Shown here: piece after piece, positions 1,382 through 38,557 of the stretch
Layout of the letters: every line of letters begins with the position of its first letter
How positions within the stretch are numbered: position 1 is the first letter of the stretch
From: a virus
Lineage: Duplodnaviria; Heunggongvirae; Uroviricota; Caudoviricetes
Virus record (IMG/VR): IMGVR_UViG_2925891887_000008
DNA: 38,557 nucleotides
Reading direction: 5' to 3' (one strand)
Notes under the pieces: model-generated
What the model was told of the DNA's origin: nothing
Database searches by the model: none
What the model saw: the letters and a program-made list of their open reading frames with translations, nothing else
Made by a program: the position numbers and the translations under genes

Positions 1382-3067
1382 GTGAATATAAACGTCGCCG
1401 AATTGTTAAATGGGAATTACATTTTGTTATTATTTGTGGTCCTCGCGCTTGGGCTATGTCTCGGAAAGTTACGACTTGGTTCGATCCAACTGGGTAATTC
1501 CATTGGCGTTTTAGTCGTATCGCTGTTATTAGGCCAACAACATTTCAGCATTAACACCGATGCGCTTAATCTTGGCTTTATGCTGTTTATTTTCTGCGTC
1601 GGGGTCGAAGCCGGACCGAACTTTTTTTCCATTTTTTTTCGCGATGGGAAAAATTACCTAATGTTAGCACTGGTGATGGTTGGCAGTGCGCTGGTGATCG
1701 CCTTAGGGTTAGGTAAGCTGTTTGGCTGGGATATTGGCCTGACGGCCGGTATGTTAGCAGGCTCTATGACGTCGACACCGGTTCTGGTCGGTGCTGGCGA
1801 TACACTGCGTCATTCCGGCATGGAAAGCAGGCAGCTCTCACTGGCACTGGATAATCTGAGCCTCGGGTATGCCTTAACCTATTTAATCGGTCTGGTGAGT
1901 TTGATTGTTGGTGCGCGTTACTTGCCGAAATTGCAGCATCAGGACTTACAGACCAGCGCCCAGCAAATCGCCCGCGAACGTGGCCTGGACACTGATGCCA
2001 ACCGTAAGGTTTATTTACCGGTGATCCGCGCCTATCGCGTCGGCCCGGAGCTGGTGGCCTGGACCGACGGCAAAAATCTGCGTGAACTGGGTATTTATCG
2101 ACAAACCGGCTGCTACATTGAACGTATTCGACGTAACGGGATTCTGGCAAATCCAGACGGTGATGCCGTGCTACAAATGGGCGATGAAATAGCGTTGGTA
2201 GGCTATCCCGACGCCCATGCCCGACTCGATCCCAGCTTCCGTAACGGTAAAGAAGTTTTCGATCGTGACCTTCTCGACATGCGTATCGTCACTGAAGAAG
2301 TGGTCGTTAAAAACCATAACGCTGTAGGTAAACGTCTCGCACAACTGAAGTTGACCGATCACGGTTGCTTCCTTAACCGCGTCATTCGTAGCCAGATTGA
2401 GATGCCGATAGATGACAACGTCGTGCTTAACAAAGGTGACGTTTTACAAGTCAGCGGTGATGCCCGTCGCGTAAAAACCATCGCCGATCGCATCGGCTTT
2501 ATCTCGATTCACAGCCAGGTCACTGACCTGCTGGCATTTTGCGCCTTCTTTGTTATTGGGCTGATGATCGGGATGATCACCTTCCAGTTCAGCACATTCA
2601 GTTTCGGCATGGGGAACGCTGCCGGGTTGTTATTCGCCGGAATTATGCTGGGCTTTATGCGTGCTAACCACCCGACCTTCGGTTACATTCCGCAAGGTGC
2701 ATTAAGCATGGTGAAAGAGTTCGGCTTGATGGTGTTTATGGCAGGCGTTGGTCTGAGCGCCGGTAGCGGTATTAATAACGGCCTGGGCGCGATTGGCGGT
2801 CAGATGTTGATTGCCGGATTAATTGTCAGTCTTGTGCCCGTGGTTATCTGTTTCTTGTTCGGTGCTTATGTATTGCGAATGAACCGCGCACTGTTGTTCG
2901 GCGCAATGATGGGCGCACGCACCTGCGCGCCGGCAATGGAGATCATCAGTGATACAGCTCGCAGTAACATCCCTGCGCTGGGCTATGCGGGCACCTACGC
3001 AATCGCCAACGTCCTGCTGACGCTGGCAGGGACAATCATCGTCATGGTATGGCCAGGATTAGGATAA
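1382..3067 (+). CDS. ybjL: YbjL, putative AAE-family transporter with two TrkA-C domains
   Basis: 561-aa ORF with a GTG start. [24 protein letters not shown]... is recognised as E. coli YbjL. Hydrophobic N- and C-terminal halves flank a soluble central region. Confidence 0.95.
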
Positions 3068-3611: not shown

Positions 3612-4712
3612 TCATTCCATTTCGAAATCATCAATCCTCACTTCAAGCTCCAGACTGGTCGTAAAACCGTTATCCGGGCTGACGGTATGCGTCAGAGTCG
3701 TAATGGTCCATTCCGCATCATCTATCGGCTGTTTAAAGCCACTGACTTTCACTGGCATTTCCGTGTAGAGATCTGCCCGACCTTCCGCCAGTTGTAGCGA
3801 GAATGACGCAACGCCGCGTTGCAGGCGTTCCCACTGCATTTTCGCCGCTCGTTCGGCGTTGCTCCGGTTGGCATAAGTGCGATTAAGTACCAGCACGTTT
3901 TCATCCGTACCCACCAGGTAATCGCCCTGCTTCGCTTCCGGCTCTTTCTTCTGCTTCTTAGTCCTGCGCTTACGCTTCACCGTGGTGCTTTCTTTCTTCG
4001 AGGGTTCGCGAGTATGCAACCAGCTGGCAATTACGCCCGTGTAAGCTCCGCGATCTGCCAGGGTAAAGCGGTGACTGTCGCCGTCCTTACGTGTGATAGT
4101 GATCACCGGCAGTGGTTTACCGCTGGCACTTTTACCCTGTCCCTGTCGGATGAATAACAGATTGCCATTTTTCACTGACGCGATAGCACCGTACTGGCGC
4201 GCCAGCCGCATCAGAAAACTGCCGTCACTCTCATTAGTCTGGTCTATATGTTCCACGGGCTTATCCGACAGGTCATTACCCAGTGCCATCTTCAGCTTGT
4301 GACGCGCGGCTATTTCCTTGACCACTTCCCCGACAGTGGTCTTGTGCCACGACTTTTCACGGCGGGTATTCAGCGTTTCACGAAAATCAGCACTTCGCGC
4401 CCGGATAGTCAGGCGGTCCGGTGCGCCAGTGTGTTCAATCTCGTCCACCGTGAATGCCCCTTTCGGGAAAAGCGGCTGCCCCTTCCAGCCCAGCGCCAGC
4501 GTAATGACCGCACCACGGCGCGGCAGCGCTATTTTTCCATCGGCGTCGTCCAGCTCCAGATCAAGCTGGTCCGCTTCAAAGCCCCGGTTATCCGTCAGCG
4601 TCAGCCTCATCAGGCGGTTATCCAGCACAGTGGTGATATCCCTGCCCTCAATACTGATGCTGAATGCGGGAGTTTTGTTGCCTTTGTTAAGCAGTTCAGA
4701 GCTGAAATTCAC
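3612..4712 (-). CDS. D: Tail protein D (late control D family, baseplate hub-like)
   Basis: 366-aa ORF in the P2 gpD position between ogr and U. Start and stop codons overlap its neighbours. Confidence 0.8.
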   Translation of the reverse strand: MNFSSELLNKGNKTPAFSISIEGRDITTVLDNRLMRLTLTDNRGFEADQLDLELDDADGKIALPRRGAVITLALGWKGQPLFPKGAFTVDEIEHTGAPDRLTIRARSADFRETLNTRREKSWHKTTVGEVVKEIAARHKLKMALGNDLSDKPVEHIDQTNESDGSFLMRLARQYGAIASVKNGNLLFIRQGQGKSASGKPLPVITITRKDGDSHRFTLADRGAYTGVIASWLHTREPSKKESTTVKRKRRTKKQKKEPEAKQGDYLVGTDENVLVLNRTYANRSNAERAAKMQWERLQRGVASFSLQLAEGRADLYTEMPVKVSGFKQPIDDAEWTITTLTHTVSPDNGFTTSLELEVRIDDFEME

Positions 4713-5194
4713 GACAGCAGCCCTCCCACCGTTTTACTGATATCACTTAAGGCAGATGTTGCCGTGTCCTGCAGATTATTCAGTTGCGTACTGAGATCAC
4801 CGAACATATCGGACAGGGATTCATCCACCCGTTTGAGCGACAGGGTGAACTCAATCCGCCGCGGCATACCGTCGCGGAAAAACTCCGTTTTAGTCAGATT
4901 CAGTCCCTCAATCACATACATGCCGTAAATCGTGCCGCTGCCTTCAATCAGGGGCCATGCTTTTCCCTGTTCTGCCATCTGCTCCAGAGCCAGCAACGAC
5001 AGCCTGCCGCCCGTTATCTCCGGCATAAGAACACCAGAAAGCGTCAGCATGTCGTTGTCCGGTCCCAGAAACTGCGTGGACGGACGACGGTTTACCCGGC
5101 TGTTTGCCGCATGTCGCCAGCTGCGTTGATACTGCAGTTCCTGATACGGAACGGTGCGCAGCATAAACACGTACAATCCCAGCACCATCATCAT
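4709..5194 (-). CDS. U: Tail protein U
   Basis: 161 aa (P2 gpU is about 159 aa). It is syntenic between T and D, with 4-nt overlaps on both sides. Confidence 0.8.
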   Translation of the reverse strand: MMMVLGLYVFMLRTVPYQELQYQRSWRHAANSRVNRRPSTQFLGPDNDMLTLSGVLMPEITGGRLSLLALEQMAEQGKAWPLIEGSGTIYGMYVIEGLNLTKTEFFRDGMPRRIEFTLSLKRVDESLSDMFGDLSTQLNNLQDTATSALSDISKTVGGLLS

Positions 5195-8100
5195 GCGTCG
5201 TATCCCCCCTGATCGCTGTAGTTACTCCTGGCTTTTGCCTTCAGCCTGCGTTCACGTTCATCAAGCTGGCGTGCCACCTCCCGCGCAATATCCTGCGCAC
5301 TTTGTCCTGGCTGCATCTGAATGATGATCTGCGTCGGTGCCTCAATCCTGTAAACGGGCGGCACAGTGGCTGCACGACTCACCATCGCTTCGCCGCCTTT
5401 CGCGGGAAGTGCCAAAGGATGCAACGGTGGAAGCTCTGCAGGCGCGGCAGCAACGCCCATCATTCCGGCAACAACGGCAGCCAGTGCAGCTGTATTTCTC
5501 CGGCTGGTCACATTTGCCGGGCCGTTAACAATTTCCGGCCCGTTTTCACCGACGATGCCAAACTGCCCGCGCGGGATATAGCCGCCGCTGTCATACATCC
5601 CCGCAAAGCCATATCCCCATGACGGAAAACCACCCGATGGCATCATCACTTTACCGTTTGTATTCACCGTCGCAGGTTGCTGACGCGTCACACTTTCCGG
5701 TAGTTTCGCCTTTGCGGCCTCTTTACTGACAACGCCGAGTTTCTCCAGCAACCAGGAAACGCCGGATTTCAGGGAGTCCAGCGGATGCATGACCATATTC
5801 AGCCCTTCCGCCAGTGCCTCCCCGAATCGCCGCCCCATTGCCGCTGCACTCTGCAGTTCGGCAGAGGTTGACTTAACGGGCGTCAGCAGATCAGTAAACC
5901 AGCCCCACAGCGCCTGTACTTTGTCGCCAATCCACTGGAACACGGGCTTAAGCGGTTCGAATGCTGCACTGACGGGACCTGCCGCCGCTTTGAATCCTTC
6001 CACCACGCCACCAAGAAATGCGGTGATGGGTTGCCAGTATTTCCAGACAACCAGCGCCACGCCCGCCAGTGCAGTAACCACAAGACCTATCGGACTGAGC
6101 AGAGCACCTAACAGACCAGATACGGCATACAGGGCAACGCGCAGCATCGCCAGTGGACCAGATGCCAGTACTCGCAGCACCGTGCCTGCGGCGGCCAGTC
6201 CACCACGCAGTACCGCCAGAGGATTCATAAACATCACAGCAACAGCACGTAAACCGGATAATCCAGACCGCAAAAGTGCAACCGGCGCACCTGCTACAGT
6301 TTTCAGGACATTTCCCGTCAGTGATGCCGTGCGGCGCAAAGACGACAACGGCGCAGTAAGTAAACCCGCAGCGTGGCCCGATGAAGCAAGCCCGCGTCGC
6401 AGCAGTGCCAGTGGTGCGCCAGCCAGCCAGGACAACGCGCTGCTGGTTCGAGTTACTGCTGCCGTAACGGAAGGTAACGTTTTGATACCCAGCACAGAGA
6501 ACCCCAGACGGATCACTGCCAGCGGCCCCAGCACTGCAGCTAACACCACCGCTAAGGTGCCGAGGCCCACGGTAACCGCAGCCACAACAGCCGCCGCTTT
6601 CATCAGTGTGCCCGTCAGTTCCGGGTTAGCTTCCACCCAGCGACGCAACGCCCCCGTGACGCTTTTCACCGTGAACAGAATATCCATCAGCGGCTGGCGC
6701 AGCGTTTCGCCCAGGCTGCTGAAGGTGTTCTGCGCTCCGGTTTTGACCAGCAACCACTGAGCAGAAAGTGAGTCTTTGTTGATGTCGGATTCTTTCTGCA
6801 TGGAGCCGAGCGCATCATTGCCCGCTGTCAGTTTTAGCTGGCGCTGCAGTTCCGGCAGGTTGTTTGCCAGTTTCGCCGCGTCATCGCCAAACTCTTTACC
6901 AAACAACATGGTCATGGCAGACAGGCGCTTATCCTGCGGCAGCGCGTTCACCTTCTCCAGCACGCGCTGGATGGTTCCCATCGCATCCTTCGTCATCTGC
7001 TTTTCAATCACTTCAGGATTGAGTTTCAGCAGATTCATCCCTTCAAAGAAACTCTTGCTCTGCATGGTGGCAATGGACAATTCACGCACCATCGCGTTTG
7101 CTGCACTGGCTGCAACCTCTGGCGCAGCGCCCAGTGTCAGGAAGGTGGAACCCAGCGCCGCCGCTTTACGATAATCCAGACGATCAGCCACACCGCCCAG
7201 GCGTTGCATGACATCAATGATGTCTGCCCCTTTCGACATGGCGTTATCATCCAGATAGTTCAGCGCATCACCGAGCTGTTCAATATTGCGGGTAGGGATT
7301 TTGTAGAGCTGGGCGATTTTCCCCAGACTTTCTGACAGTTCATCCGCTGGCAGCTCAAAGGCTGTTGCCGCCTTTGCTGCCGTACTGGCGAAGGCCAGCA
7401 GGTCACGTTTCTGGTCCTCCCAGCTGTCGTCAGGGTTTGCAACGTTCATACGCGCACCACCTTCAACCAGTGCAGCGAAGTCCACCGCACCGTTTTCCAT
7501 CGGCAACTGTTCGCTGGCAGCTTTGATGGCATCCTGCATTTCATAAAAACGTGCAGTGCGGTTGCCATTATCGTCACGCAGACCATTGACCTGCTTTGCC
7601 ACACCTTTCATGGCATCTTCCATGCTGGTATAGCTTTTTACTGCCGCCATCACTGGCGTCCCCATTGCCAGCCCTGCCGCCGTGGTGGTGGCTCCGGTTC
7701 CTGCGATGCGATCGCGCACCTCCAGCGAACGGGCATAACTGGCACGCGCTGCATTCATCCTGCGCTGAGCTTCCCCCAGTCGCTTCAGCCGCGCCTCCTG
7801 TTTCGACAGTTCCTGGTTATAACGTGATGTTTCACGGGCTAAACGGGCAGTTGCTCCCGCATCATCTTTCGCAGAAATTCCCGCCCGGTACAGTTCTGCA
7901 CGCACAAGCGCCGTTTGCTTCTGCAAATATTTTTGTTGTTCTTCCAGGCGTTGGACTGCCAGTGTTTGCCGACCTAAAGCCACAAGGTGCCGTTGTGATG
8001 GTTGTTCCATCGCTTCCAGCTCAGAACTAAGCAAATTTGCCTTCTGTCTGGCATAGTTCAGCCTGTCGCCTAACTTTTTGTTATCGGCCTGCAGCTTGCG

Positions 8101-15312: not shown

Positions 15313-16147
15313 AGGGAAAGGTTGCCATCAATAGCAAGCAGTAGACAGCCTTTGTAATTGTATTAGACATAGAACAAATGCCTTTCAATGGTCTGCGTTA
15401 GAGCATTAATACGTTGCAAAAGGTCGAATGACGTTGCGCAAGTTAAGAAGTTCAATGCTCTTAAAAAAGCACTTGAAAGCAACGCCTTTAATTATTAAAA
15501 GCCAATTAATTTAGGCGGTTACTATGTTATCTTTGACACAAAAGATGTTTATTGACAATATATAAGTTCAATCTAACAAGGAGAAAAATTATGCCAAATG
15601 AAAATCTTGATATTGACTCAAGGACTACCGAGCAATTATACGAATGGTATTTGCAAGGAAATTTGATAGTCAATAGACGTTATCAAAGGAAACTTGTATG
15701 GTCTCTAGAAGAAAAGACTTCTTTAATATCTTCTATGCTGCAACAATATCCTATTCCGTTATTATTATTTGTTACCATCAATGAACAAAGAGAAATATTG
15801 GATGGAATGCAAAGATTAGAAGCAATTATGAGCTTCATCGAACAGAGATTTTCATTAGATGGACAATATTTTGATTTGGACTCTATAGCTTTAACAAAAC
15901 AACTTAAAGATAATGGAACTTTAATTCAGAAAGAACCAATCCTTTCCCGTGATTCTTCAGCAATTATTGCACGTTATCGATTTGCAATATCAGAATATAG
16001 CTCCACAAATGAAAATATTGACGAAGTATTCAGACGAATAAACTCAAACGGGAAGATTTTATCCAAACAAGAATTACGTAGTGCAGGAACAGGGTGATGC
16101 TGCCAACTTACTGATTTAGTGTATGATGGTGTTTTTGAGGTGCTCCA

Positions 16148-16423
16148 GTGGCTTCTGTTTCTATCAGCTGTCCCTCCTGTTCAGCTACTGACGGGGTGGT
16201 GCGTAACGGCAAAAGCACCGCCGGACATCAGCGCTATCTCTGCTCTCACTGCCGTAAAACATGGCAACTGCAGTTCACTTACACCGCTTCTCAACCCGGT
16301 ACGCACCAGAAAATCATTGATATGGCCATGAATGGCGTTGGATGCCGGGCAACCGCCCGCATTATGGGCGTTGGCCTCAACACGATTTTCCGCCATTTAA
16401 AAAACTCAGGCCGCAGTCGGTAA
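16148..16423 (+). CDS. insA: IS1 InsA
   Basis: 91 aa, [32 protein letters not shown]..., recognised as InsA. Confidence 0.95.
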
Positions 16424-16845
16424 CCTCGCGCATACAGCCGGGCAGTGACGTCATCGTCTGCGCGGAAATGGACGAACAGTGGGGATACGTCGGGGCTAAA
16501 TCGCGCCAGCGCTGGCTGTTTTACGCGTATGACAGGCTCCGGAAGACGGTTGTTGCGCACGTATTCGGTGAACGCACTATGGCGACACTGGGGCGTCTTA
16601 TGAGCCTGCTGTCACCCTTTGACGTGGTGATATGGATGACGGATGGCTGGCCGCTGTATGAATCCCGCCTGAAGGGAAAGCTGCACGTAATCAGCAAGCG
16701 ATATACGCAGCGAATTGAGCGGCATAACCTGAATCTGAGGCAGCACCTGGCACGGCTGGGACGGAAGTCGCTGTCGTTCTCAAAATCGGTGGAGCTGCAT
16801 GACAAAGTCATCGGGCATTATCTGAACATAAAACACTATCAATAA
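16342..16845 (+). CDS. insB: IS1 InsB frame (the transposase is made as InsAB' by a -1 frameshift)
   Basis: 167-aa InsB ORF. The A6C slippery run at 16399-16405 lies in the insA/insB overlap. Confidence 0.95.
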
Positions 16846-18218
16846 GTTGGAGTCATTACCCAGGAACAGTTAGTAACTTCTCTGAACTGGTCAGATCGAT
16901 ATCAACATCGATCAGAGGTGATACTAGCCATTCTGACATTATGAATCTCCAGCAAATGCACAAAATTTCAATCAGTAACGATAGATTGGAGTACGGGGTA
17001 AATATCGATAACCACTTTTATATAAAACATCATATTTTAACAAGACGAAGTATTCGTGATTCTGATGACGAGGAATTGATAGCCAATATCCTTGCATATA
17101 TCAGTCTAGAAGAAAAACCCACATCTGGGTCAACTTCTCTCGACACATTCTATGGTCAAGGAAACTCCTCTCATGCTCATGGTGTCAGACAGCAATTAGA
17201 GTCTTTCATTCAAACCAATAACGCTGCCACTATTAAGCAGAATTTCATAGCTGTATATGAATTAATTACAAGCCTATATGACGGAAAAAATGATACTTTT
17301 AGAAGCCATATTTTAGGGGAGGATAATTCATCTCAAGAATGCCCTCGTTATTATCAAGCTGTGTTTTTGTCTATTTATGAACTTCTTTTCAACCAAAATA
17401 TGCAATTAATTGATAAAGAAGGTTTATTCTCGCAATTAAAAAACACTGGCAATACCATAATTATGGTTACCGATGGTGGCCGCTGGGCTGCAAGCACTCG
17501 TGAAAAAAGTGTTAATGATCTTGTTGCATTAATAAGTCGTTACTTCCAACCTGCTCCTCAAAAGTATGTGAATCATGCTTGGGTAACTGAAATTCGCAAT
17601 CTATTAACAAATTCTAGAACTGAACAACCAAGTTATGATTTCAAACAAGGGTTCTTTAATTTATCAGGTAAAAATGAATTTGATGATGAATGTTTAAAAG
17701 GAATATTACAAACTTGCGTAGCAATAAATAATATTGGAAAAAGCGCAAAAGGCTATATTTTAGTTGGTATTGCCGAAAATAAATTAACCGCAGATAGAAT
17801 TCAACATTTATATGGAGTAAATTCAATTGAGTTCAATGGGTTCTATATAAACGGAATTGATCATGAAGCAATGTTAGTCTCTGGTAGCATTGATGATTAC
17901 TTTATGTTAATAAAACAAAAAATACAAGGATACAATTTCACTGAAACTCTAAAACAGCAGATACTTAAGAATATTGAGTTTTGCTCTTACAATGGCTTAC
18001 ACATACTCAAGATAACTATTCAGAGCACAGGTCAAATTTGCGACTTTGAGAATATGTTTTATATCAGACAAGGCTCATCGACTGATCCAGTTACGGATAC
18101 ACAAAAAATCTCAGCTCTATTTAACTCTTACATGAACAGCTAATCAATCGCCATCTCCACTGGAGCTGGCTTATGGATAAAAACAAAAGACGAGAGGGCT
18201 ATTTAAACCTCCTCGTCT

Positions 18219-29157: not shown

Positions 29158-29185
29158 CTTTCCTCCTATGACACCACAAGCAATA

Positions 29186-29216
29186 CTGTATACATAACCA
29201 CTGTTTATATTTACAG
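29186..29216. promoter_or_regulatory. Two abutting LexA (SOS) boxes
   Basis: CTGTTTATATTTACAG (29201-29216) is a perfect CTG-N10-CAG with an AT-rich core. CTGTATACATAACCAC (29186-29201) is a weaker CTG-N10-CAC. Both lie 30-60 bp upstream of the 29157 start. Confidence 0.7.
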
Positions 29217-29310
29217 CACATAATAATCTTACTGATGTAAAACGTTTTTTTACGTTCATTAGCCTGATATGCCTGGTATTATTAAGAGCACGAATTGTTA
29301 ACCCGCGTAA

Positions 29311-34481: not shown

Positions 34482-34505
34482 GATAAAAGTTCACTTGGAG
34501 TGACC

Positions 34506-35075
34506 ATGAATTTGGAGAAAGGCGGACGAGGCGCTATAGAGCGCATGGTAGAAGCTTATGGATTCAAAACTCGACAGGCGTTGTGCGATCATTTAGGAAT
34601 CTCTAAAAGTACACTCGCTACACGCTACATGCGTGACTCATTCCCAGCAGAATGGGTAATCCAGTGCGCCCTTGAAACGGGCACCTCGCTTAATTGGCTC
34701 ACAACTGGACATGGTTCAAAGCAAACTTCAGGTAATACAAATACGATGGAAGTTGCTAAATATGTATTATCTGATGGTGCCTTGCGTGAAGACGGTTTTT
34801 ATATTTTTGATAAGGGATTTCTACCCTCTACGTTTAAAAAACCTTTTGTCATCACAGATAACAATTCTGAATTTATTTGTGATAAAGAATTTGATGATAT
34901 ACGTGATGGTAAATGGGTAATAAGTATTGATGGCGAAATAACAATCCGCGACATTACTCGTTTACCCGGTGGAAGAATCTTCGTTGAAGGTGGAAACAGA
35001 ACCTTCGAGTGCAAGATAGAAGATGTTGAAATAATTGGAAAAATTATAAGTTTGACAATTAAGTACGTTAGGTAA
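34506..35075 (+). CDS. cI: CI immunity repressor (186 type)
   Basis: ATG 34506 (GGAG 5 nt upstream) gives 189 aa. The N-terminal HTH region ...MVEAYGFKTRQALCDHLGISKSTLATRYMRD...CALETGTSLNWLTTGHG resembles 186 CI. Confidence 0.8.
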   Translation: MNLEKGGRGAIERMVEAYGFKTRQALCDHLGISKSTLATRYMRDSFPAEWVIQCALETGTSLNWLTTGHGSKQTSGNTNTMEVAKYVLSDGALREDGFYIFDKGFLPSTFKKPFVITDNNSEFICDKEFDDIRDGKWVISIDGEITIRDITRLPGGRIFVEGGNRTFECKIEDVEIIGKIISLTIKYVR

Positions 35076-35090
35076 TACCGGGAGGAAACT

Positions 35091-35282
35091 ATGCTTGGTA
35101 AGGTATTTTTTGTGGTTTTATCATGCTCTTTGTTATTAAACCCACTAACTACCTATGCTAAAAATTATCCTTGTTCTGGGAAAAAGGGAGGTGTCTCTCA
35201 CTGTACCTCCGATGGAAAGTTCGTTTGCAATGATGGAACTATTAGTAAATCAAAAAAAATCTGTACTAAAAACTCGCGATAA
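35091..35282 (+). CDS. Small Cys-rich exported protein (lysogeny-operon cargo)
   Basis: 63 aa. GGAGG precedes the ATG. It has a signal peptide ([23 protein letters not shown]) and a mature part with 4 Cys ([32 protein letters not shown]). Confidence 0.55.
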
Positions 35283-35433
35283 TTTTTGCTTTTATATCTG
35301 CGCCTAATATAACAATGAGCCGCAGGCTAACCGCAAAAGTCACATACTCACATAGCAAAAAATAGCCAACTTCATTATGGCTTCAGTGAGATGTATGGTC
35401 GCAAGATTTCATACATTGACACTGGTTATACAT

Positions 35434-36749
35434 GGGTCTTCCCTTGTTGTGGTGGCTGAAGGCATGATAATGGTGTATTTAATCGCCAGAGGTCACCGCC
35501 ATGGACGAAAAGTCCCTCTACGCTCATATTCTCAACCTGTCCGATCCGTGGCAGGTAAAGTCCCTTTCTCTCGATGAAAATGCCGGTTCTGTTACTGTCA
35601 CTATTGAGATCGCTGAAAACACCCGGCTAGCCTGTCCGACCTGCGGTAAATCCTGTTCTGTTCACGATCACCGTCATCGTAAATGGCGCCATCTTGATAC
35701 CTGCCAGTTCACCACTATTGTTGAAGCCGATGTTCCACGAATTATGTGTCCGGAGCATGGCTGCCTGACGTTGCCTGTTCCGTGGGCTGGCCCCGGAAGC
35801 CGGTATACGTTGCTATTCGAATCGTTCGTTCTCTCATGGCTGAAAATCAGCACCGTTGATGCTGTCAGGAAGCAACTTAAGCTCAGTTGGAATGCGGTTG
35901 ACGGCATTATGACCCGGGCAGTTAAGCGAGGTCTTGCCCGGATAAAAAAGCCATTATCCGCCCGTCATATGAATGTGGATGAGGTCGCCTTTAAAAAAGG
36001 ACATCGTTACATAACGGTGATCTCCGATCGCGATGGTCGGGCGCTGGCCTTAACGGATGATCGCGGCACAGAGAGTCTTGCCGGCTATCTTCGCACGCTC
36101 ACTGATGGGCAGTTGCTGGCTATCAAAACGCTCTCAATGGACATGAACGCGGGCTATATAAGAGCAGCGCGTATCCACTTACCCAGTGCGGTTGAGAAAA
36201 TCGCCTTTGACCGCTTCCATGTGGCGAAGCAACTGGGCGAGGTAGTTGATAAAACCCGTCAGAATGAACATCCGCACCTCCCTGTTGAAAGCCGACACCA
36301 GGCAAAAGGAACCCGCTTCCTGTGGCAGTACAGCGATAAGTGGATGACCGAATCCCGGCAGGAAAAGCTGATGTGGCTGCGTGCACAGATGAAGCTGACG
36401 AGCCAGTGCTGGGCGCTGAAAGAGCTGGCAAAGGATATCTGGAACAGGCCATGGAGCGAGGAAAGACGGAGTGACTGGCAGAGATGGTTGGCGCTGGCGG
36501 CTAACAGTGACGTTCCCATGATGAAAAATGCCGCGAAAACGATAGGAAAAAGGCTGTACGGGATCCTGAATGCGATGCGACACAGTGTCTCAAACGGAAA
36601 TGCGGAGGCACTTAACAGCAAGATCAGGCTGCTGAGGATAAAAGCCAGGGGATACCGAAACCGGGAGCGCTTTAAACTGGGGGTGATGTTCCACTACGGA
36701 AAGCTGAATATGGCGTTCTGAGCCTTCCCACCATGATCGGGGAAGACCC
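35434..36749 (+). mobile_element. ISL3-family insertion sequence (1316 bp)
   Basis: Imperfect terminal inverted repeats: GGGTCTTCCC...TGGTGG at 35434, and its reverse complement ending at 36749. The element is flanked by the 8-bp direct duplication TTATACAT (35426-35433 and 36750-36757). Confidence 0.85.
35501..36721 (+). CDS. ISL3-family transposase
   Basis: 406 aa with an N-terminal zinc-finger region (CPTCGK...H..H) and a DDE-type core. Overall it resembles ISL3-family transposases. Confidence 0.8.
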   Translation: MDEKSLYAHILNLSDPWQVKSLSLDENAGSVTVTIEIAENTRLACPTCGKSCSVHDHRHRKWRHLDTCQFTTIVEADVPRIMCPEHGCLTLPVPWAGPGSRYTLLFESFVLSWLKISTVDAVRKQLKLSWNAVDGIMTRAVKRGLARIKKPLSARHMNVDEVAFKKGHRYITVISDRDGRALALTDDRGTESLAGYLRTLTDGQLLAIKTLSMDMNAGYIRAARIHLPSAVEKIAFDRFHVAKQLGEVVDKTRQNEHPHLPVESRHQAKGTRFLWQYSDKWMTESRQEKLMWLRAQMKLTSQCWALKELAKDIWNRPWSEERRSDWQRWLALAANSDVPMMKNAAKTIGKRLYGILNAMRHSVSNGNAEALNSKIRLLRIKARGYRNRERFKLGVMFHYGKLNMAF

Positions 36750-36792
36750 TTATACATACAGTAAAAATGCTCTCTATTGGAGGGCATTTTTT

Positions 36793-37824
36793 ATGGCAGT
36801 ACGAAAACTCACCACAGGAAAATGGCTTTGCGAATGTTACCCCGCCGGACGTAGTGGGCGTCGTGTGCGTAAACAATTCGCCACCAAAGGCGAAGCACTG
36901 GCTTTTGAGCGTCACACGATGGAAGAAACCGAAGCAAAGCCCTGGCTGGGCGAATCAGTAGATCGTCGAACCCTGAAAGACGTGGTTGAGCTATGGTTCA
37001 AACTACATGGTAAATCTCTGACTGCTGGGCAGCATGTCTATGACAAATTGCTGCTGATGGTTGACGCTCTGGGCAATCCCCTTGCAACCGATCTCACATC
37101 TAAAATGTTTGCCCATTATCGAGATAAACGACTGACAGGTGAGATCTACTTCAGCGAGAAATGGAAGAAAGGGGCCAGCCCGGTCACCATTAACCTGGAG
37201 CAAAGCTATCTAAGTAGTGTTTTTAGCGAACTATCCCGCCTGGGCGAATGGTCGTATCCAAACCCACTGGAGAACATGCGAAAATTCACCATCGCAGAAA
37301 AAGAGATGGCATGGCTTACCCATGAGCAGATTGTTGAACTGCTGGATGATTGCAAACGTCAGGACCCAATTCTGGCACTGGTAGTCAAGATATGCTTAAG
37401 CACAGGCGCACGCTGGCGAGAAGCAATAAACCTAACCCGATCACAGGTGACCAAATACCGAATTACCTTTGTAAGAACGAAGGGGAAGAAAAACAGAAGC
37501 ATCCCTATCAGTAAAGAGCTTTATGAAGAGATCATGGCGCTTGATGGGTTCAATTTCTTCACAGACTGCTATTTTCAATTTTTATCCGTGATGGAAAAAA
37601 CGTCTATCGTGCTCCCTCGCGGTCAACTTACACACGTTCTGCGTCATACGTTTGCGGCGCATTTCATGATGTCGGGTGGAAACATCCTTGCTTTGCAAAA
37701 AATCCTCGGACATCACGACATAAAAATGACTATGCGTTATGCTCATCTATCACCTGATCACTTAGAGACAGCTCTTCGTTTCAATCCACTAGCAACTTTG
37801 GATGTTACTAAATCAGATTCTTAA
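36793..37824 (+). CDS. int: Tyrosine integrase (P2/186 type)
   Basis: ATG 36793 (MAVRKLTTGKWLCECYP...) gives 343 aa. Catalytic signature: ARWREAINL, HVLRHTFA and MRYAHL. The track start at 36733 lies inside the IS end. Confidence 0.9.
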   Translation: MAVRKLTTGKWLCECYPAGRSGRRVRKQFATKGEALAFERHTMEETEAKPWLGESVDRRTLKDVVELWFKLHGKSLTAGQHVYDKLLLMVDALGNPLATDLTSKMFAHYRDKRLTGEIYFSEKWKKGASPVTINLEQSYLSSVFSELSRLGEWSYPNPLENMRKFTIAEKEMAWLTHEQIVELLDDCKRQDPILALVVKICLSTGARWREAINLTRSQVTKYRITFVRTKGKKNRSIPISKELYEEIMALDGFNFFTDCYFQFLSVMEKTSIVLPRGQLTHVLRHTFAAHFMMSGGNILALQKILGHHDIKMTMRYAHLSPDHLETALRFNPLATLDVTKSDS

Positions 37825-37834
37825 AGGTTCAAGC

Positions 37835-38557
37835 ATGGTTAAGTTTTTGTTTCAATTCCCAATATTCGACTTCTCCTTAACATTTGATATTATCGAGACG
37901 TTAATCACTCATAGCGAATCATCAATCGCTAAGGGTATAGCAGAATATAAAGACAAAGGACCTGAAGAATATATAATTGAAATATCTCCGGAAGATGGTG
38001 TATATCAGTCAATTGATCATTACATGGGACTCACCAGCTCATCGCTAGATCTCGATGAAATGTTTTTAGAATACTACCCAAGTATTATCCGCAGGTCAGT
38101 ATTCTTAACTATATTCGGAATTTTTGAGCACGAAATAGAAAAATTCTGTAACAACTTTGCTAATAGACATCATTCTCCTATAAATGTTTCAGATCTCAAA
38201 GGAAGTGGATTTGAGAGGAGCCATCTATTTATCAAAAAAATGATAGGGATGAAGTCAACATCCCACTATTCGAATATCAAAAAAATAACAAAATTAAGAA
38301 ACAGTTGTGCGCATAATGATGCAAAATACTTAGAAAACGATGGGCAAAATATTAAAAGCATTATTGAACTTATAGAAAAATATCCTGATTTTTTTAAAAA
38401 AGATGGAAAACAGGTCCTATTTATGGAGGGCTCGTTAAGCATGATCTTGAACTCATTCAAAGAGTATCTTTCTGATGTTGAAAGAGCCTTAGATGAATTC
38501 GAAAAACAAAGCACTAGTGGCGACAAAGTGGCGGCAGCGGTTGGCATTACCCCGTAA
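37835..38557 (+). CDS. Hypothetical protein with an Rx4H (HEPN-like) motif; cargo between int and att
   Basis: About 240 aa from ATG 37835 (the track start at 37802 overlaps int). It is AT-rich and helical-looking. LRNSCAHN (38297-38314 encodes R-N-S-C-A-H) fits the HEPN Rx4-6H ribonuclease motif. The last 13 codons span the att repeat and the DNA beyond it. Confidence 0.6.
   Translation: MVKFLFQFPIFDFSLTFDIIETLITHSESSIAKGIAEYKDKGPEEYIIEISPEDGVYQSIDHYMGLTSSSLDLDEMFLEYYPSIIRRSVFLTIFGIFEHEIEKFCNNFANRHHSPINVSDLKGSGFERSHLFIKKMIGMKSTSHYSNIKKITKLRNSCAHNDAKYLENDGQNIKSIIELIEKYPDFFKKDGKQVLFMEGSLSMILNSFKEYLSDVERALDEFEKQSTSGDKVAAAVGITP
38518..38539. repeat. Prophage attachment-site core, int-proximal copy
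   Basis: TGGCGACAAAGTGGCGGCAGCG matches 3281-3302 at 21 of 22 positions. Confidence 0.6.

What the first reader, a model, noticed from the sequence alone, without database searches (positions are those of the whole stretch)
35416..36768. ISL3-family insertion splits a near-consensus promoter upstream of int and separates int from the cI operon
The 1316-bp element has an intact 8-bp duplication (TTATACAT). Removing it restores the sequence TTGACActggTTATACATacagTAAAAAT: a perfect -35 (35416-35421), a 16-17 nt spacer, and an A/T-rich -10 (36762-36768) about 25 bp upstream of the int ATG. The insertion now puts 1.3 kb between the two promoter halves. It also lies between cI plus the small ORF and int, which in 186 are co-transcribed from pL. 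Integrase supply, and so excision after SOS induction, may be impaired, leaving the prophage anchored. Alternatively an outward-reading promoter in the IS now drives int and the downstream HEPN-like gene.
Basis: partly seen in the sequence, partly recalled or inferred. Interest (0 to 1): 0.5.

Follow-up and report, generated by a model that had tools for sequence, protein, structure and literature searches.

The report
SOS-box-seeking IS splits integrase promoter
A mobile element (ISKox3) that inserts almost only into binding sites of the DNA-damage repressor LexA has landed in such a site inside the integrase promoter of a 186-like prophage, which probably cuts the integrase off from the damage signal that wakes the phage.

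Summary
Bases 35434-36749 are a 1316-bp ISKox3 (ISL3 family), 100% identical to copies common in E. coli, flanked by an intact TTATACAT duplication. The joined flanks occur uninterrupted in 592 E. coli genomes, at 100% identity in at least 14.

The "spacer" between TTGACA and TAAAAAT is a LexA (SOS) box, CACTGGTTATACATACAGTA. It scores 24.2 bits and is the best LexA-matrix hit in the IS-less window. CTG-N10-CAG is invariant in all 32 int-upstream variants examined, while the interior varies.

The landing site is not chance. Of 102 distinct ISKox3 insertion sites, 92 have CTG at -12..-10 (83 the full CTGT), and 47 of 57 right flanks have the mirror CAG. Copies sit in the tisB/istR-2, dinD and umuD-like boxes. 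ISKox3 and ISEc53 each hit the same int box in another prophage lineage.

Most likely int has its own LexA-repressed promoter. The IS has split that promoter and its operator. int now lies behind a hairpin that hides its ribosome-binding site, so excision is probably impaired. This last step is inferred, not shown.

No outward IS promoter was found. The 186-style cI-int operon model does not fit this phage.

The parts
34500..35075 (+). cI repressor gene (186 type), upstream of the insertion and untouched by it
   Evidence: Phage_CI_repr and Phage_CI_C domains; annotated 'phage repressor protein CI' in IS-free relatives
35091..35282 (+). Small ORF (63 aa, signal-peptide-like N-terminus) between cI and int. 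186 has no gene at this position.
   Evidence: ORF list; annotated 'YdcA family protein' or hypothetical in relatives; phrog_6000, unknown function
35391..35416 (.). Conserved inverted repeat ATGTATG-N12-CATACAT at the 5' edge of the int cassette; function unknown
   Evidence: Present in nearly all int-upstream variants despite unrelated sequence further upstream. Matching ATGTTTG/CAAACAT arms occur in L073 and phage ESSI2_ev129. The RNA fold is weak (-8.9 kcal/mol, z -1.75).
35416..35421 (+). -35 hexamer TTGACA of the predicted int promoter, now 1.3 kb from its -10
   Evidence: Sequence; 10/12 promoter match in the IS-free relative L004; TTGAC(A/C), TTGATT or TTGAAT kept in all variants
35420..35433 (.). 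Left part of the split LexA box: CA-CTGG plus the central 8 bp TTATACAT (left copy of the duplication, 35426-35433)
   Evidence: The reconstructed 20-mer CACTGGTTATACATACAGTA scores 24.2 bits on a LexA matrix built from 18 published E. coli boxes. It is the best hit in the IS-less window; the maximum in 200 shuffles was 19.1.
35434..36749 (+). ISKox3 (ISL3 family), 1316 bp, with the transposase reading in the same direction as int
   Evidence: 100% identity to annotated ISKox3 copies; 1,643 of 5,426 E. coli genomes have a match; inverted repeats
35501..36721 (+). ISKox3 transposase gene (406 aa, intact)
   Evidence: DDE_Tnp_ISL3 9.9e-56, HTH_Tnp_ISL3, Zn_ribbon_ISL3
36750..36763 (.). Right part of the split LexA box: right copy of the duplication TTATACAT (36750-36757) plus ACAG-TA
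   Evidence: The same cut geometry (CTGN | 8 bp | ACAG) is seen at the other ISKox3 sites.
36762..36768 (+). Predicted -10 region TAAAAAT. AAAAAT sits at a 17-nt spacing and TAAAAA at 16 nt in the empty site.
   Evidence: Variants have TAAATT, TATAAAT or AATCAT at 17-18 nt.
36763..36791 (+). Hairpin AAAAATGCTCTC/GAGGGCATTTTT with the Shine-Dalgarno GGAGGG (36779-36784) in its 3' arm, followed by a T-run and the int ATG. The 5' arm overlaps the -10, so a transcript started at the int promoter would lack it.
   Evidence: Inverted repeat I6. RNA fold -17.5 kcal/mol, z -5.55; a leader starting at about 36776 is unstructured. The stem is kept with a double compensatory change in L073 (GTCCTC/GAGGAC) and by a different stem in ESSI2_ev129.
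36793..37824 (+). int, a P2/186-type tyrosine integrase (343 aa, intact)
   Evidence: Int_N and Phage_integrase domains; 100% identical proteins in IMG/VR prophages
29184..29218 (-). Internal control: two adjacent LexA boxes (22.9 and 16.5 bits) upstream of a 62-aa ORF (29157-28969) and a DinI-like ORF (28958-28725). This is the counterpart of the LexA-controlled tum of 186.
   Evidence: Matrix scan; sequence; DinI family 6.6e-23

Best explanation
Shown. A recent copy of ISKox3 inserted into the exact centre of a 20-bp LexA-box-like palindrome 39 bp upstream of the int start codon of a 186-like prophage. The prophage lies between ybjL and rcdA. ISKox3 is strongly target-specific for CTGT-(8 AT-rich bp)-ACAG and duplicates the central 8 bp. 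Its natural sites are largely real SOS operators. The same int box has been hit independently in another prophage lineage.

Inferred. In the intact phage the box fills the spacer of int's own sigma-70 promoter, TTGACA-[CTGGTTATACATACAG]-TAAAAAT. LexA therefore keeps int low in the lysogen and releases it during the SOS response, together with the LexA-controlled tum-like antirepressor operon. Transcripts starting at this promoter begin inside the 5' arm of the downstream hairpin and so have a free ribosome-binding site. Transcripts arriving from upstream form the full hairpin, which hides the ribosome-binding site and looks like a terminator.

Predicted consequence. The IS moves the -35 1.3 kb away from the -10, halves the operator and creates no substitute promoter. 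Any read-through from the transposase gene or from pL must pass the hairpin. int should therefore be poorly expressed and no longer SOS-inducible. The prophage keeps immunity and SOS-triggered derepression, but should excise and yield phage poorly.
For: IS identity, duplication and empty site.

LexA box.
- A matrix built from 18 UV-induced E. coli genes (PMC3009722) gives 24.2 bits. Known boxes score 13.1-28.5. It is the top hit in the 37-kb IS-less window, and 200 shuffles gave a mean maximum of 11.9 and an overall maximum of 19.1.
- The next-best hits are the tandem boxes in front of the tum/DinI-like operon, a built-in positive control.
- All 29 distinct int-upstream variants from 80 IMG/VR loci keep CTG-N10-CAG (14.5-26.1 bits) at a fixed position between the -35 and -10. 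So do L001, Klebsiella phage 4LV2017 and Escherichia phage ESSI2_ev129. There are 14 different interiors.

Promoter. It is the best sigma-70 match (10/12) in the IS-free relative. The cassette travels with int, with homology starting at about 35411 in phages that have unrelated immunity regions.

Hairpin.

ISKox3 specificity.
- 92 of 102 distinct left flanks have CTG at -12..-10, and 47 of 57 right flanks have CAG at +10..+12.
- 25 reconstructed targets with a confirmed duplication score a median of 25.9 bits. The background frequency of scores at or above 13 bits is 1e-5.
- E. coli copies sit in the tisB/istR-2 box, the published dinD box and the umuD-like box of IncX3 pNDM5.
- Outward-facing ORFs next to the sites are rich in Peptidase_S24 (17), DinI (7) and SulA (2), plus single IMS, SSB, UvrA, YdjM and TisB hits.

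Recurrence. ISKox3 is found in the homologous box of a different prophage in 7 genomes, with duplication TGTTATAT. ISEc53 (84.7% identical) is at the same position in an eighth genome, and a ninth holds an IS1-truncated remnant.

No outward or hybrid promoter.

Precedent. LexA control of integrases is known for integrons (PMC3108266) and for a gut phage integrase (PMC3998124).
Against: - No LexA binding, transcription start or expression data exist for this site. The promoter hexamers alone are not above chance in number.
- The -10 is only 4/6. The left half-site reads CTGG rather than CTGT, as in the ruvA and cho boxes.
- Box conservation could partly reflect the short evolutionary distance among most variants. 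The informative distant cases are few (ESSI2_ev129, L073, L080, L044 class).
- Using the ISKox3 insertion as evidence that the site is a LexA box is partly circular. It shows the site resembles the IS target, not that LexA binds it.
- Terminator activity of the hairpin is not shown. ESSI2_ev129 has the hairpin without a T-run. The tool's terminator scan did not list the hairpin.
- A LexA-repressed int raises the question of how Int is supplied during lysogenisation. Read-through from pL/pE may matter more than I assume, and then the IS would act mainly by polarity.
Confidence: 0.7

Rival explanations
1. The split sequence is an ordinary unregulated promoter, and/or int is normally co-transcribed with cI from pL as in 186. 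The IS then lowers Int mainly by polarity on the lysogenic operon.
For: cI, the small ORF and int are all on the + strand with no strong terminator between cI and the IS. In 186 the lysogenic operon does include int. The hexamers match 10/12.
Against: In 186, cI and int overlap by 1 nt. Here an extra ORF, a spacer and a -17.5 kcal/mol hairpin with a U-run precede int. The int-proximal 80 bp is a portable cassette found behind unrelated immunity genes. The spacer is a 24.2-bit LexA box with invariant CTG/CAG, which an unregulated promoter does not need.
Confidence: 0.15
2. The insertion has little effect. Read-through from the transposase gene and from pL, or a promoter inside the IS, supplies enough Int, so excision is near normal.
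For: The transposase gene and int are co-directional with only 71 nt between them and no terminator inside the IS right end. int is intact. The same kind of insertion persists in at least 8 sequenced E. coli genomes.
Against: No promoter better than 8/12 lies near the right end, and there is no hybrid promoter. All read-through RNA contains the complete hairpin that pairs the Shine-Dalgarno sequence. Persistence in genomes is equally expected for a locked-in prophage.
Confidence: 0.2
3. The palindrome is not a LexA operator. It would be a binding site for a phage protein (Int, Cox/Apl-like or CI), or simply a sequence that happens to fit the ISKox3 target preference.
For: No binding data exist. 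A second conserved inverted repeat (ATGTATG..CATACAT) lies next to it and suggests further protein binding. In some variants the box is part of a longer palindrome, TTGACCA-C-TGGTCAA.
Against: The conserved positions are exactly the LexA-contact triplets CTG and CAG at N10 spacing, while the interior drifts but stays AT-rich. The score lies within the range of proven boxes and above every other site in the phage, including its tum boxes. ISKox3 sites elsewhere lie in front of canonical SOS genes.
Confidence: 0.1

Closest known systems
ISKox3 (ISL3 family), as carried on IncX3 blaNDM plasmids
   Same: 100% identical over 1316 bp. Same transposase domains, inverted repeats and 8-bp duplication. 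Reported to be active with 8-bp AT-rich direct repeats (PMC12057282).
   Different: Nothing differs in the element itself. What I did not find in the searchable literature is its near-exclusive use of LexA-box palindromes as targets. Insertions recovered under selection for capsule loss have AT-rich repeats, and the paper does not discuss flanking consensus.
LexA-repressed integrase promoters: integron PintI (Guerin et al. 2009; PMC3108266) and a LexA site upstream of a gut phage integrase (PMC3998124)
   Same: A LexA box overlaps the core promoter of a tyrosine-recombinase gene, coupling recombination to DNA damage.
   Different: Here the gene is the int of P2/186-like (Peduoviridae) prophages of Enterobacterales. 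The box fills the whole -35/-10 spacer and is combined with a hairpin that sequesters the ribosome-binding site. There is no experimental support yet. The published phage case was tested with B. subtilis LexA.
Coliphage 186 SOS control through the LexA-repressed p95 promoter and tum, with int in the pL (cI-int) operon
   Same: The gene order cII, apl/cox-like, cI, int is the same. There is also a LexA-boxed tum/DinI-like operon downstream of the replication gene.
   Different: 186 has no cI-int intergenic region and no LexA box at int. This phage has an added ORF, an int cassette with its own promoter-like sequence and LexA box, and a further gene after int.
Insertion sequences with palindromic or structured hot-spot targets: IS10 (NGCTNAGCN), IS30 (24-bp palindromic hot spots), IS1397/ISKpn1 (REP/BIME). 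Cited from my own knowledge.
   Same: A symmetric consensus surrounds the staggered cut, and the element is strongly site-selective.
   Different: The consensus coincides with the operator of a global regulator. The IS therefore lands in SOS-gene promoters (umuD-like, dinI, sulA, tisB, dinD, uvrA/ssb) and in prophage SOS switches. Whether LexA protein takes part is unknown.

Membership tests
ISL3 family / ISKox3 | DDE transposase of ISL3 type with an N-terminal zinc ribbon and HTH | tested here: met
   PF01610 9.9e-56, PF13542 3e-13, PF14690 1.9e-11
ISL3 family / ISKox3 | Terminal inverted repeats and an 8-bp target duplication | tested here: met
   GGGTCTTCCC... ends match 10/10 at the tips and 17/22 overall. 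TTATACAT lies on both sides.
ISL3 family / ISKox3 | Nucleotide identity to the named element | tested here: met
   100% over 1316 bp to copies annotated 'ISL3-like element ISKox3 family transposase'
Gammaproteobacterial LexA (SOS) box | CTG-N10-CAG palindrome with an AT-rich centre (consensus TACTGTATATATATACAGTA) | tested here: met
   CACTGGTTATACATACAGTA matches the consensus at 16/20. It reads CTGG as in the ruvA and cho boxes.
Gammaproteobacterial LexA (SOS) box | Matrix score within the range of experimentally supported boxes and above background | tested here: met
   24.2 bits against 13.1-28.5 for 18 known boxes. The shuffle maximum was 19.1. It is the best hit in the window.
Gammaproteobacterial LexA (SOS) box | Conservation of the contact triplets in orthologous regions | tested here: met
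   CTG and CAG are invariant in 32 of 32 variants with 14 different interiors
Gammaproteobacterial LexA (SOS) box | Binding by LexA and derepression on DNA damage | not testable with these tools
   Needs a gel shift or footprint and reporter assays
Sigma-70 promoter | -35 and -10 hexamers at a 16-18 nt spacing | tested here: met
   TTGACA-17-AAAAAT, 10/12, is the top hit in the IS-free locus L004. The total number of hits in that region equals chance.
Sigma-70 promoter | A mapped transcription start | not testable with these tools
   No transcript data; the start is predicted at about 36775 +/- 2
186-type lysogenic operon (cI and int transcribed as one overlapping unit from pL) | cI and int are contiguous or overlapping, with no intergenic signals | tested here: not met
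   In 186 the genes overlap by 1 nt. Here cI ends at 35075 and int starts at 36793, which is 393 nt apart without the IS and one repeat copy. An ORF, a promoter-like box and a hairpin lie between them.
Intrinsic terminator / translational hairpin before int | Stable stem-loop followed by a U-run, with the Shine-Dalgarno sequence in the stem | tested here: met
   -17.5 kcal/mol, z -5.55, then U6 and AUG. GGAGGG is paired. A compensatory variant exists in L073. Activity was not tested, and the T-run is absent in ESSI2_ev129.

The most novel reading that the evidence does not exclude
ISKox3 and its relative ISEc53 are operator-seeking insertion sequences. They home, through the transposase itself or through DNA-bound LexA, to LexA boxes, and so preferentially rewire SOS-controlled promoters (umuD-like, dinI, sulA, tisB/istR-2, dinD, uvrA/ssb). 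A large group of P2/186-like prophages carries a previously unrecognised LexA-repressed int cassette, which these elements repeatedly hit and thereby lock the prophage into the chromosome. ISKox3 travels on IncX3 NDM plasmids, so acquiring the plasmid would bring an agent that edits the host's SOS regulon and its prophages.
Probability: 0.45. Interest if true: 0.8.

Novelty: new variant of a known kind. Interest (0 to 1): 0.66.

Why it matters
Three points matter if this holds.

1. It would add a third way for P2/186-type phages to time excision. The integrase would be wired directly to LexA, alongside the LexA-controlled antirepressor. This can be tested directly with a 60-bp fragment.

2. 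An IS whose targets are the operators of a global stress regulator is unusual. It predicts non-random, repeatable changes in SOS genes: translesion polymerases, the TisB persistence toxin, SulA and prophage switches. These would occur in clinical Enterobacterales that receive ISKox3 with NDM plasmids.

3. For genome annotation, an ISKox3 or ISEc53 junction becomes a practical pointer to LexA boxes. In the other direction, LexA boxes predict where these elements will land.

For this particular prophage, the practical prediction is a lysogen that still responds to DNA damage but releases little phage.

Tried and rejected
- Outward or hybrid promoter at the IS right end. A relaxed scan of 36400-36792 found nothing better than 8/12 near the junction, and no -35 in the IS end is placed for the retained -10. 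At the left junction, TTGACA has no -10 partner in the IS end. Rejected.
- The window's exact junction in public data. It is not in 5,426 complete E. coli genomes, nor among the exact-match scans of GTDB representatives, IMG/VR and JGI metagenomes. The source genome stays unidentified.
- CATACAT/ATGTATG as a repeated protein-binding motif elsewhere, for example Int arm sites. There were 4 matches in the window against 4.5 expected. No support.
- Formal pair counting on the hairpin. The MAFFT alignment (A1) shifts the 3' arm by one column between the two sequence classes, so I did not run the count of structure pairs. I relied on individual folds and on the visible double change in L073.
- Relatives of window proteins next to ISKox3 copies in the scanned loci (tblastn). 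Only L181 carries a related prophage, and its IS is not at int. My first tum/DinI coordinates were out of frame in that run and were corrected.
- Literature. Searches combining ISKox3 or ISL3 with LexA, SOS or SOS box, and P2-like integrase with SOS box, found nothing relevant. The library lacks most subscription journals and ISfinder, so this is weak evidence of novelty.
- 'HEPN-like' gene after int. No Pfam or PADLOC hit; only phrog_21382, of unknown function.
Full report
1. THE OBSERVATION

The sequence is as described.
- Bases 35434-36749 are a 1316-bp element ending in GGGTCTTCCC.../...GGGAAGACCC. The inverted repeats match 10/10 at the tips and 17/22 overall.
- It is flanked by TTATACAT at 35426-35433 and 36750-36757.
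- Its single ORF (35501-36721, +) has the three ISL3 transposase domains.
- The DNA is 100% identical to copies RefSeq calls ISKox3. 1,643 of 5,426 complete E. coli genomes have a match, often on 46-kb IncX3 NDM-5 plasmids.

I joined the flanks with one repeat copy into an 800-nt query. It matched 592 E. coli genomes in one uninterrupted piece, at 100% identity in at least 14, annotated 'CI | hypothetical/YdcA family | phage integrase'.

The int ATG is at 36793, and int is intact. This particular junction was not found in any collection I could scan. With the perfect duplication and 100% identity of the IS, that points to a recent, private event.

2. CONTEXT

The window is a P2/186-like prophage next to a ybjL-like host gene (1382-3067). 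IS-free relatives lie between that region and rcdA/ybjJ.

The gene order is replication endonuclease, dam..., fil, cII and a cox/apl-like gene on the minus strand. On the plus strand come cI, a 63-aa ORF, int and one more ORF.

In 186 itself, cI and int overlap by one base and form the pL operon. Here they are 393 nt apart once the IS and one repeat copy are removed. This phage is therefore not built like 186 at this point.

3. WHAT THE TARGET SITE IS

I collected int relatives from IMG/VR: 80 loci giving 29 distinct upstream sequences. Sequence further upstream is often unrelated, because the immunity regions differ. In all of them the last 80 bp or so before int form a conserved cassette with these parts in order:
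- an inverted repeat ATGTATG..CATACAT;
- TTGAC(A/C), TTGATT or TTGAAT;
- CTG-N10-CAG;
- T(A/T)AAAT;
- a hairpin;
- a T-run and the ATG.

Homology between this window and isolated phages (Klebsiella 4LV2017, KP12, Escherichia 813R9, ESSI2_ev129) begins at about 35411, the start of this cassette.

CTG-N10-CAG with an AT-rich centre is the LexA box of enterobacteria. I built a matrix from the 18 boxes listed for UV-induced E. coli genes in PMC3009722.
- The reconstructed site CACTGGTTATACATACAGTA scores 24.2 bits. The 18 known boxes score 13.1-28.5.
- It is the best hit in the whole IS-less window. In 200 shuffles the maximum averaged 11.9 and never exceeded 19.1.
- The next hits (22.9 and 16.5 bits) are two adjacent boxes at 29184-29218. 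They lie upstream of a 62-aa ORF and a DinI-family ORF, in the position where 186 has its LexA-controlled tum. This is a convenient internal control.
- In the actual window the int box is gone, because the IS splits it.
- Across the 29 variants plus L001, 4LV2017 and ESSI2_ev129, the CTG and CAG triplets never change, while the interior takes 14 forms. Scores range from 14.5 to 26.1 bits.

The box occupies exactly the 16 bp between TTGACA and TAAAAAT. In the IS-free relative L004 that pair is the best sigma-70 match of the region, at 10/12. The number of promoter-like matches there is not above chance, so the hexamers alone prove little.

The hairpin at 36763-36791 folds at -17.5 kcal/mol (z -5.55). 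It pairs the Shine-Dalgarno GGAGGG and is followed by U6 and AUG. Its 5' arm overlaps the -10, so a transcript started at this promoter would lack that arm; a leader from about 36776 is unstructured. The stem survives a double change in L073 (GTCCTC/GAGGAC) and is replaced by a different stem in ESSI2_ev129.

4. WHY THE IS IS THERE

Exact-match scans for the ISKox3 left end in GTDB representative genomes, IMG/VR and JGI metagenomes gave 128 copies with 102 distinct left flanks.
- 92 flanks have CTG at -12..-10, and 83 have CTGT.
- Nine of the ten exceptions come from one IS-riddled Symbiopectobacterium assembly, and one from a Pantoea genome.
- 47 of 57 right flanks have CAG at +10..+12.
- The position-by-position composition reads T-A-C-T-G-T-(A-T)4, which is the LexA consensus.
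- The 25 targets I could reconstruct with a confirmed duplication score a median of 25.9 bits. Only 1 in 100,000 random 20-mers from the same loci reaches 13 bits.

Many of these are real operators.
- In E. coli chromosomes, ISKox3 sits in the tisB/istR-2 box and in the published dinD box.
- On pNDM5-IncX3 it sits beside an S24 (UmuD-like) peptidase gene.
- I took 102 outward-reading ORFs next to the sites and scanned them against Pfam. The commonest families are Peptidase_S24 (17), DinI (7) and SulA (2), with single IMS, SSB, UvrA, YdjM and TisB hits.

The int box has been hit more than once.
- Seven E. coli genomes carry ISKox3 at the homologous position of a different prophage. Its cI region is unrelated, its int arm is 91.7% identical, and the duplication is TGTTATAT.
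- An eighth genome carries ISEc53 at the same position. ISEc53 is 84.7% identical to ISKox3 and is 1885 bp long with a ClbS-like passenger gene.
- A ninth genome retains an ISKox3 stump cut by IS1.
- Another ISEc53 copy also has a tACTGT-N8 flank.

5. MECHANISM

Shown:
- the identity of the IS;
- its target rule;
- the LexA-box character and conservation of the site;
- the split of the -35 from the -10 and of the two half-sites;
- the absence of a substitute promoter;
- the persistence of the hairpin between the IS and int.

Inferred:
- int has its own LexA-repressed promoter;
- the hairpin insulates int from upstream transcription;
- the IS therefore deprives the prophage of SOS-inducible Int, while the tum boxes, cI and the cox-like gene stay intact.

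The expected phenotype is damage-induced derepression with poor excision and low phage yield. I give about 0.95 to the structural statements, about 0.7 to LexA control of int and about 0.5 to a strong excision defect.

6. COMPARISON WITH WHAT IS KNOWN

- The element is plain ISKox3.
- LexA control of recombinase genes is established for integron integrases (PMC3108266). LexA binding upstream of a gut phage integrase has been shown in vitro (PMC3998124).
- LexA control of 186 induction acts through tum, not int (and established knowledge).
- I found no paper describing a LexA box at the int of P2/186-like phages, and none describing LexA-box targeting by ISKox3 or ISL3 elements. The searchable library is incomplete.

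I therefore rate the whole as a new variant of known kinds: a site-selective IS and an SOS-controlled integrase.

7. VERDICT

Interest is 0.66.

Noticed in passing
window 29184-29218 (- strand), ORFs 29157-28969 and 28958-28725: Two adjacent LexA boxes (22.9 and 16.5 bits) precede a 62-aa ORF (phrog_698) and a DinI-family ORF. This looks like a split version of the 186 tum antirepressor operon, so the prophage should be SOS-inducible.
   Followed up: partly
window 16093 to about 16860; neighbours 15552-16097 and 16941-18143: A second insertion sequence, IS1 (left end at 16093, InsB ORF 16342-16845), abuts a 181-aa GmrSD_N/NsnA-like fragment that ends at the IS1 boundary. It is followed by a 400-aa Schlafen/AlbA_2 ORF. 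A defence-type accessory gene in the late region appears to have been truncated by IS1.
   Followed up: partly
window 35391-35397 and 35410-35416: The inverted repeat ATGTATG-N12-CATACAT just upstream of the -35 is kept in almost all int cassettes, even where flanking DNA is unrelated. Co-varying arms (ATGTTTG/CAAACAT) occur in L073 and phage ESSI2_ev129. The motif is not enriched elsewhere in the window, and its function is unknown.
   Followed up: partly
L214/L216 (E. coli M217, 51008369SK1), L215 (strain 4/2-1), L217 (pNDM5_020031): ISKox3 copies sit in the centre of the tisB/istR-2 LexA box, the dinD LexA box and a box next to a plasmid S24 (UmuD-like) peptidase gene. These insertions may change SOS control of a persistence toxin and of translesion synthesis genes in clinical strains.
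   Followed up: partly
L002 2266-4150 (E. coli ZY22049): ISEc53 is 1885 bp and carries a ClbS/DfsB-family passenger gene (2365-2883) ahead of its transposase. It occupies exactly the same int LexA box, with the same duplication, as ISKox3 in L001.
   Followed up: partly
L003 (E. coli 1344_LBHALD) 3905-5223: Only the last roughly 125 bp of ISKox3, the int gene and rcdA remain, joined through an IS1 fragment to the inaA/nrdB region. The rest of the prophage has been lost or moved by an IS-mediated rearrangement.
   Followed up: no
window 37835-38557 (runs off the window); full gene in L004 7478-8200: The 240-aa ORF directly after int, with no terminator between, has no Pfam or PADLOC match and only a PHROG of unknown function. 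The 'HEPN-like' label is unsupported. It may be co-transcribed with int, and so may also be affected by the IS.
   Followed up: partly
L203 4245-4982 and L176: Another ISKox3 copy (flank ...CACTGTTTATGGAT|IS) lies next to a different, 246-aa tyrosine recombinase ORF. This may be a second kind of integrase gene with a LexA-like box.
   Followed up: no
L086-L125 (Candidatus Symbiopectobacterium endolongispinus): This symbiont assembly holds at least 24 copies of a 1315-bp ISKox3 variant. Nine of them lack the CTG flank or a matching duplication, as expected if IS-IS recombination has scrambled the flanks.
   Followed up: no
window 35091-35282: A small secreted-looking ORF ('YdcA family', phrog_6000) is inserted between cI and int. 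186 has no gene at this position. It is likely a lysogeny-expressed accessory gene riding on the pL transcript.
   Followed up: no
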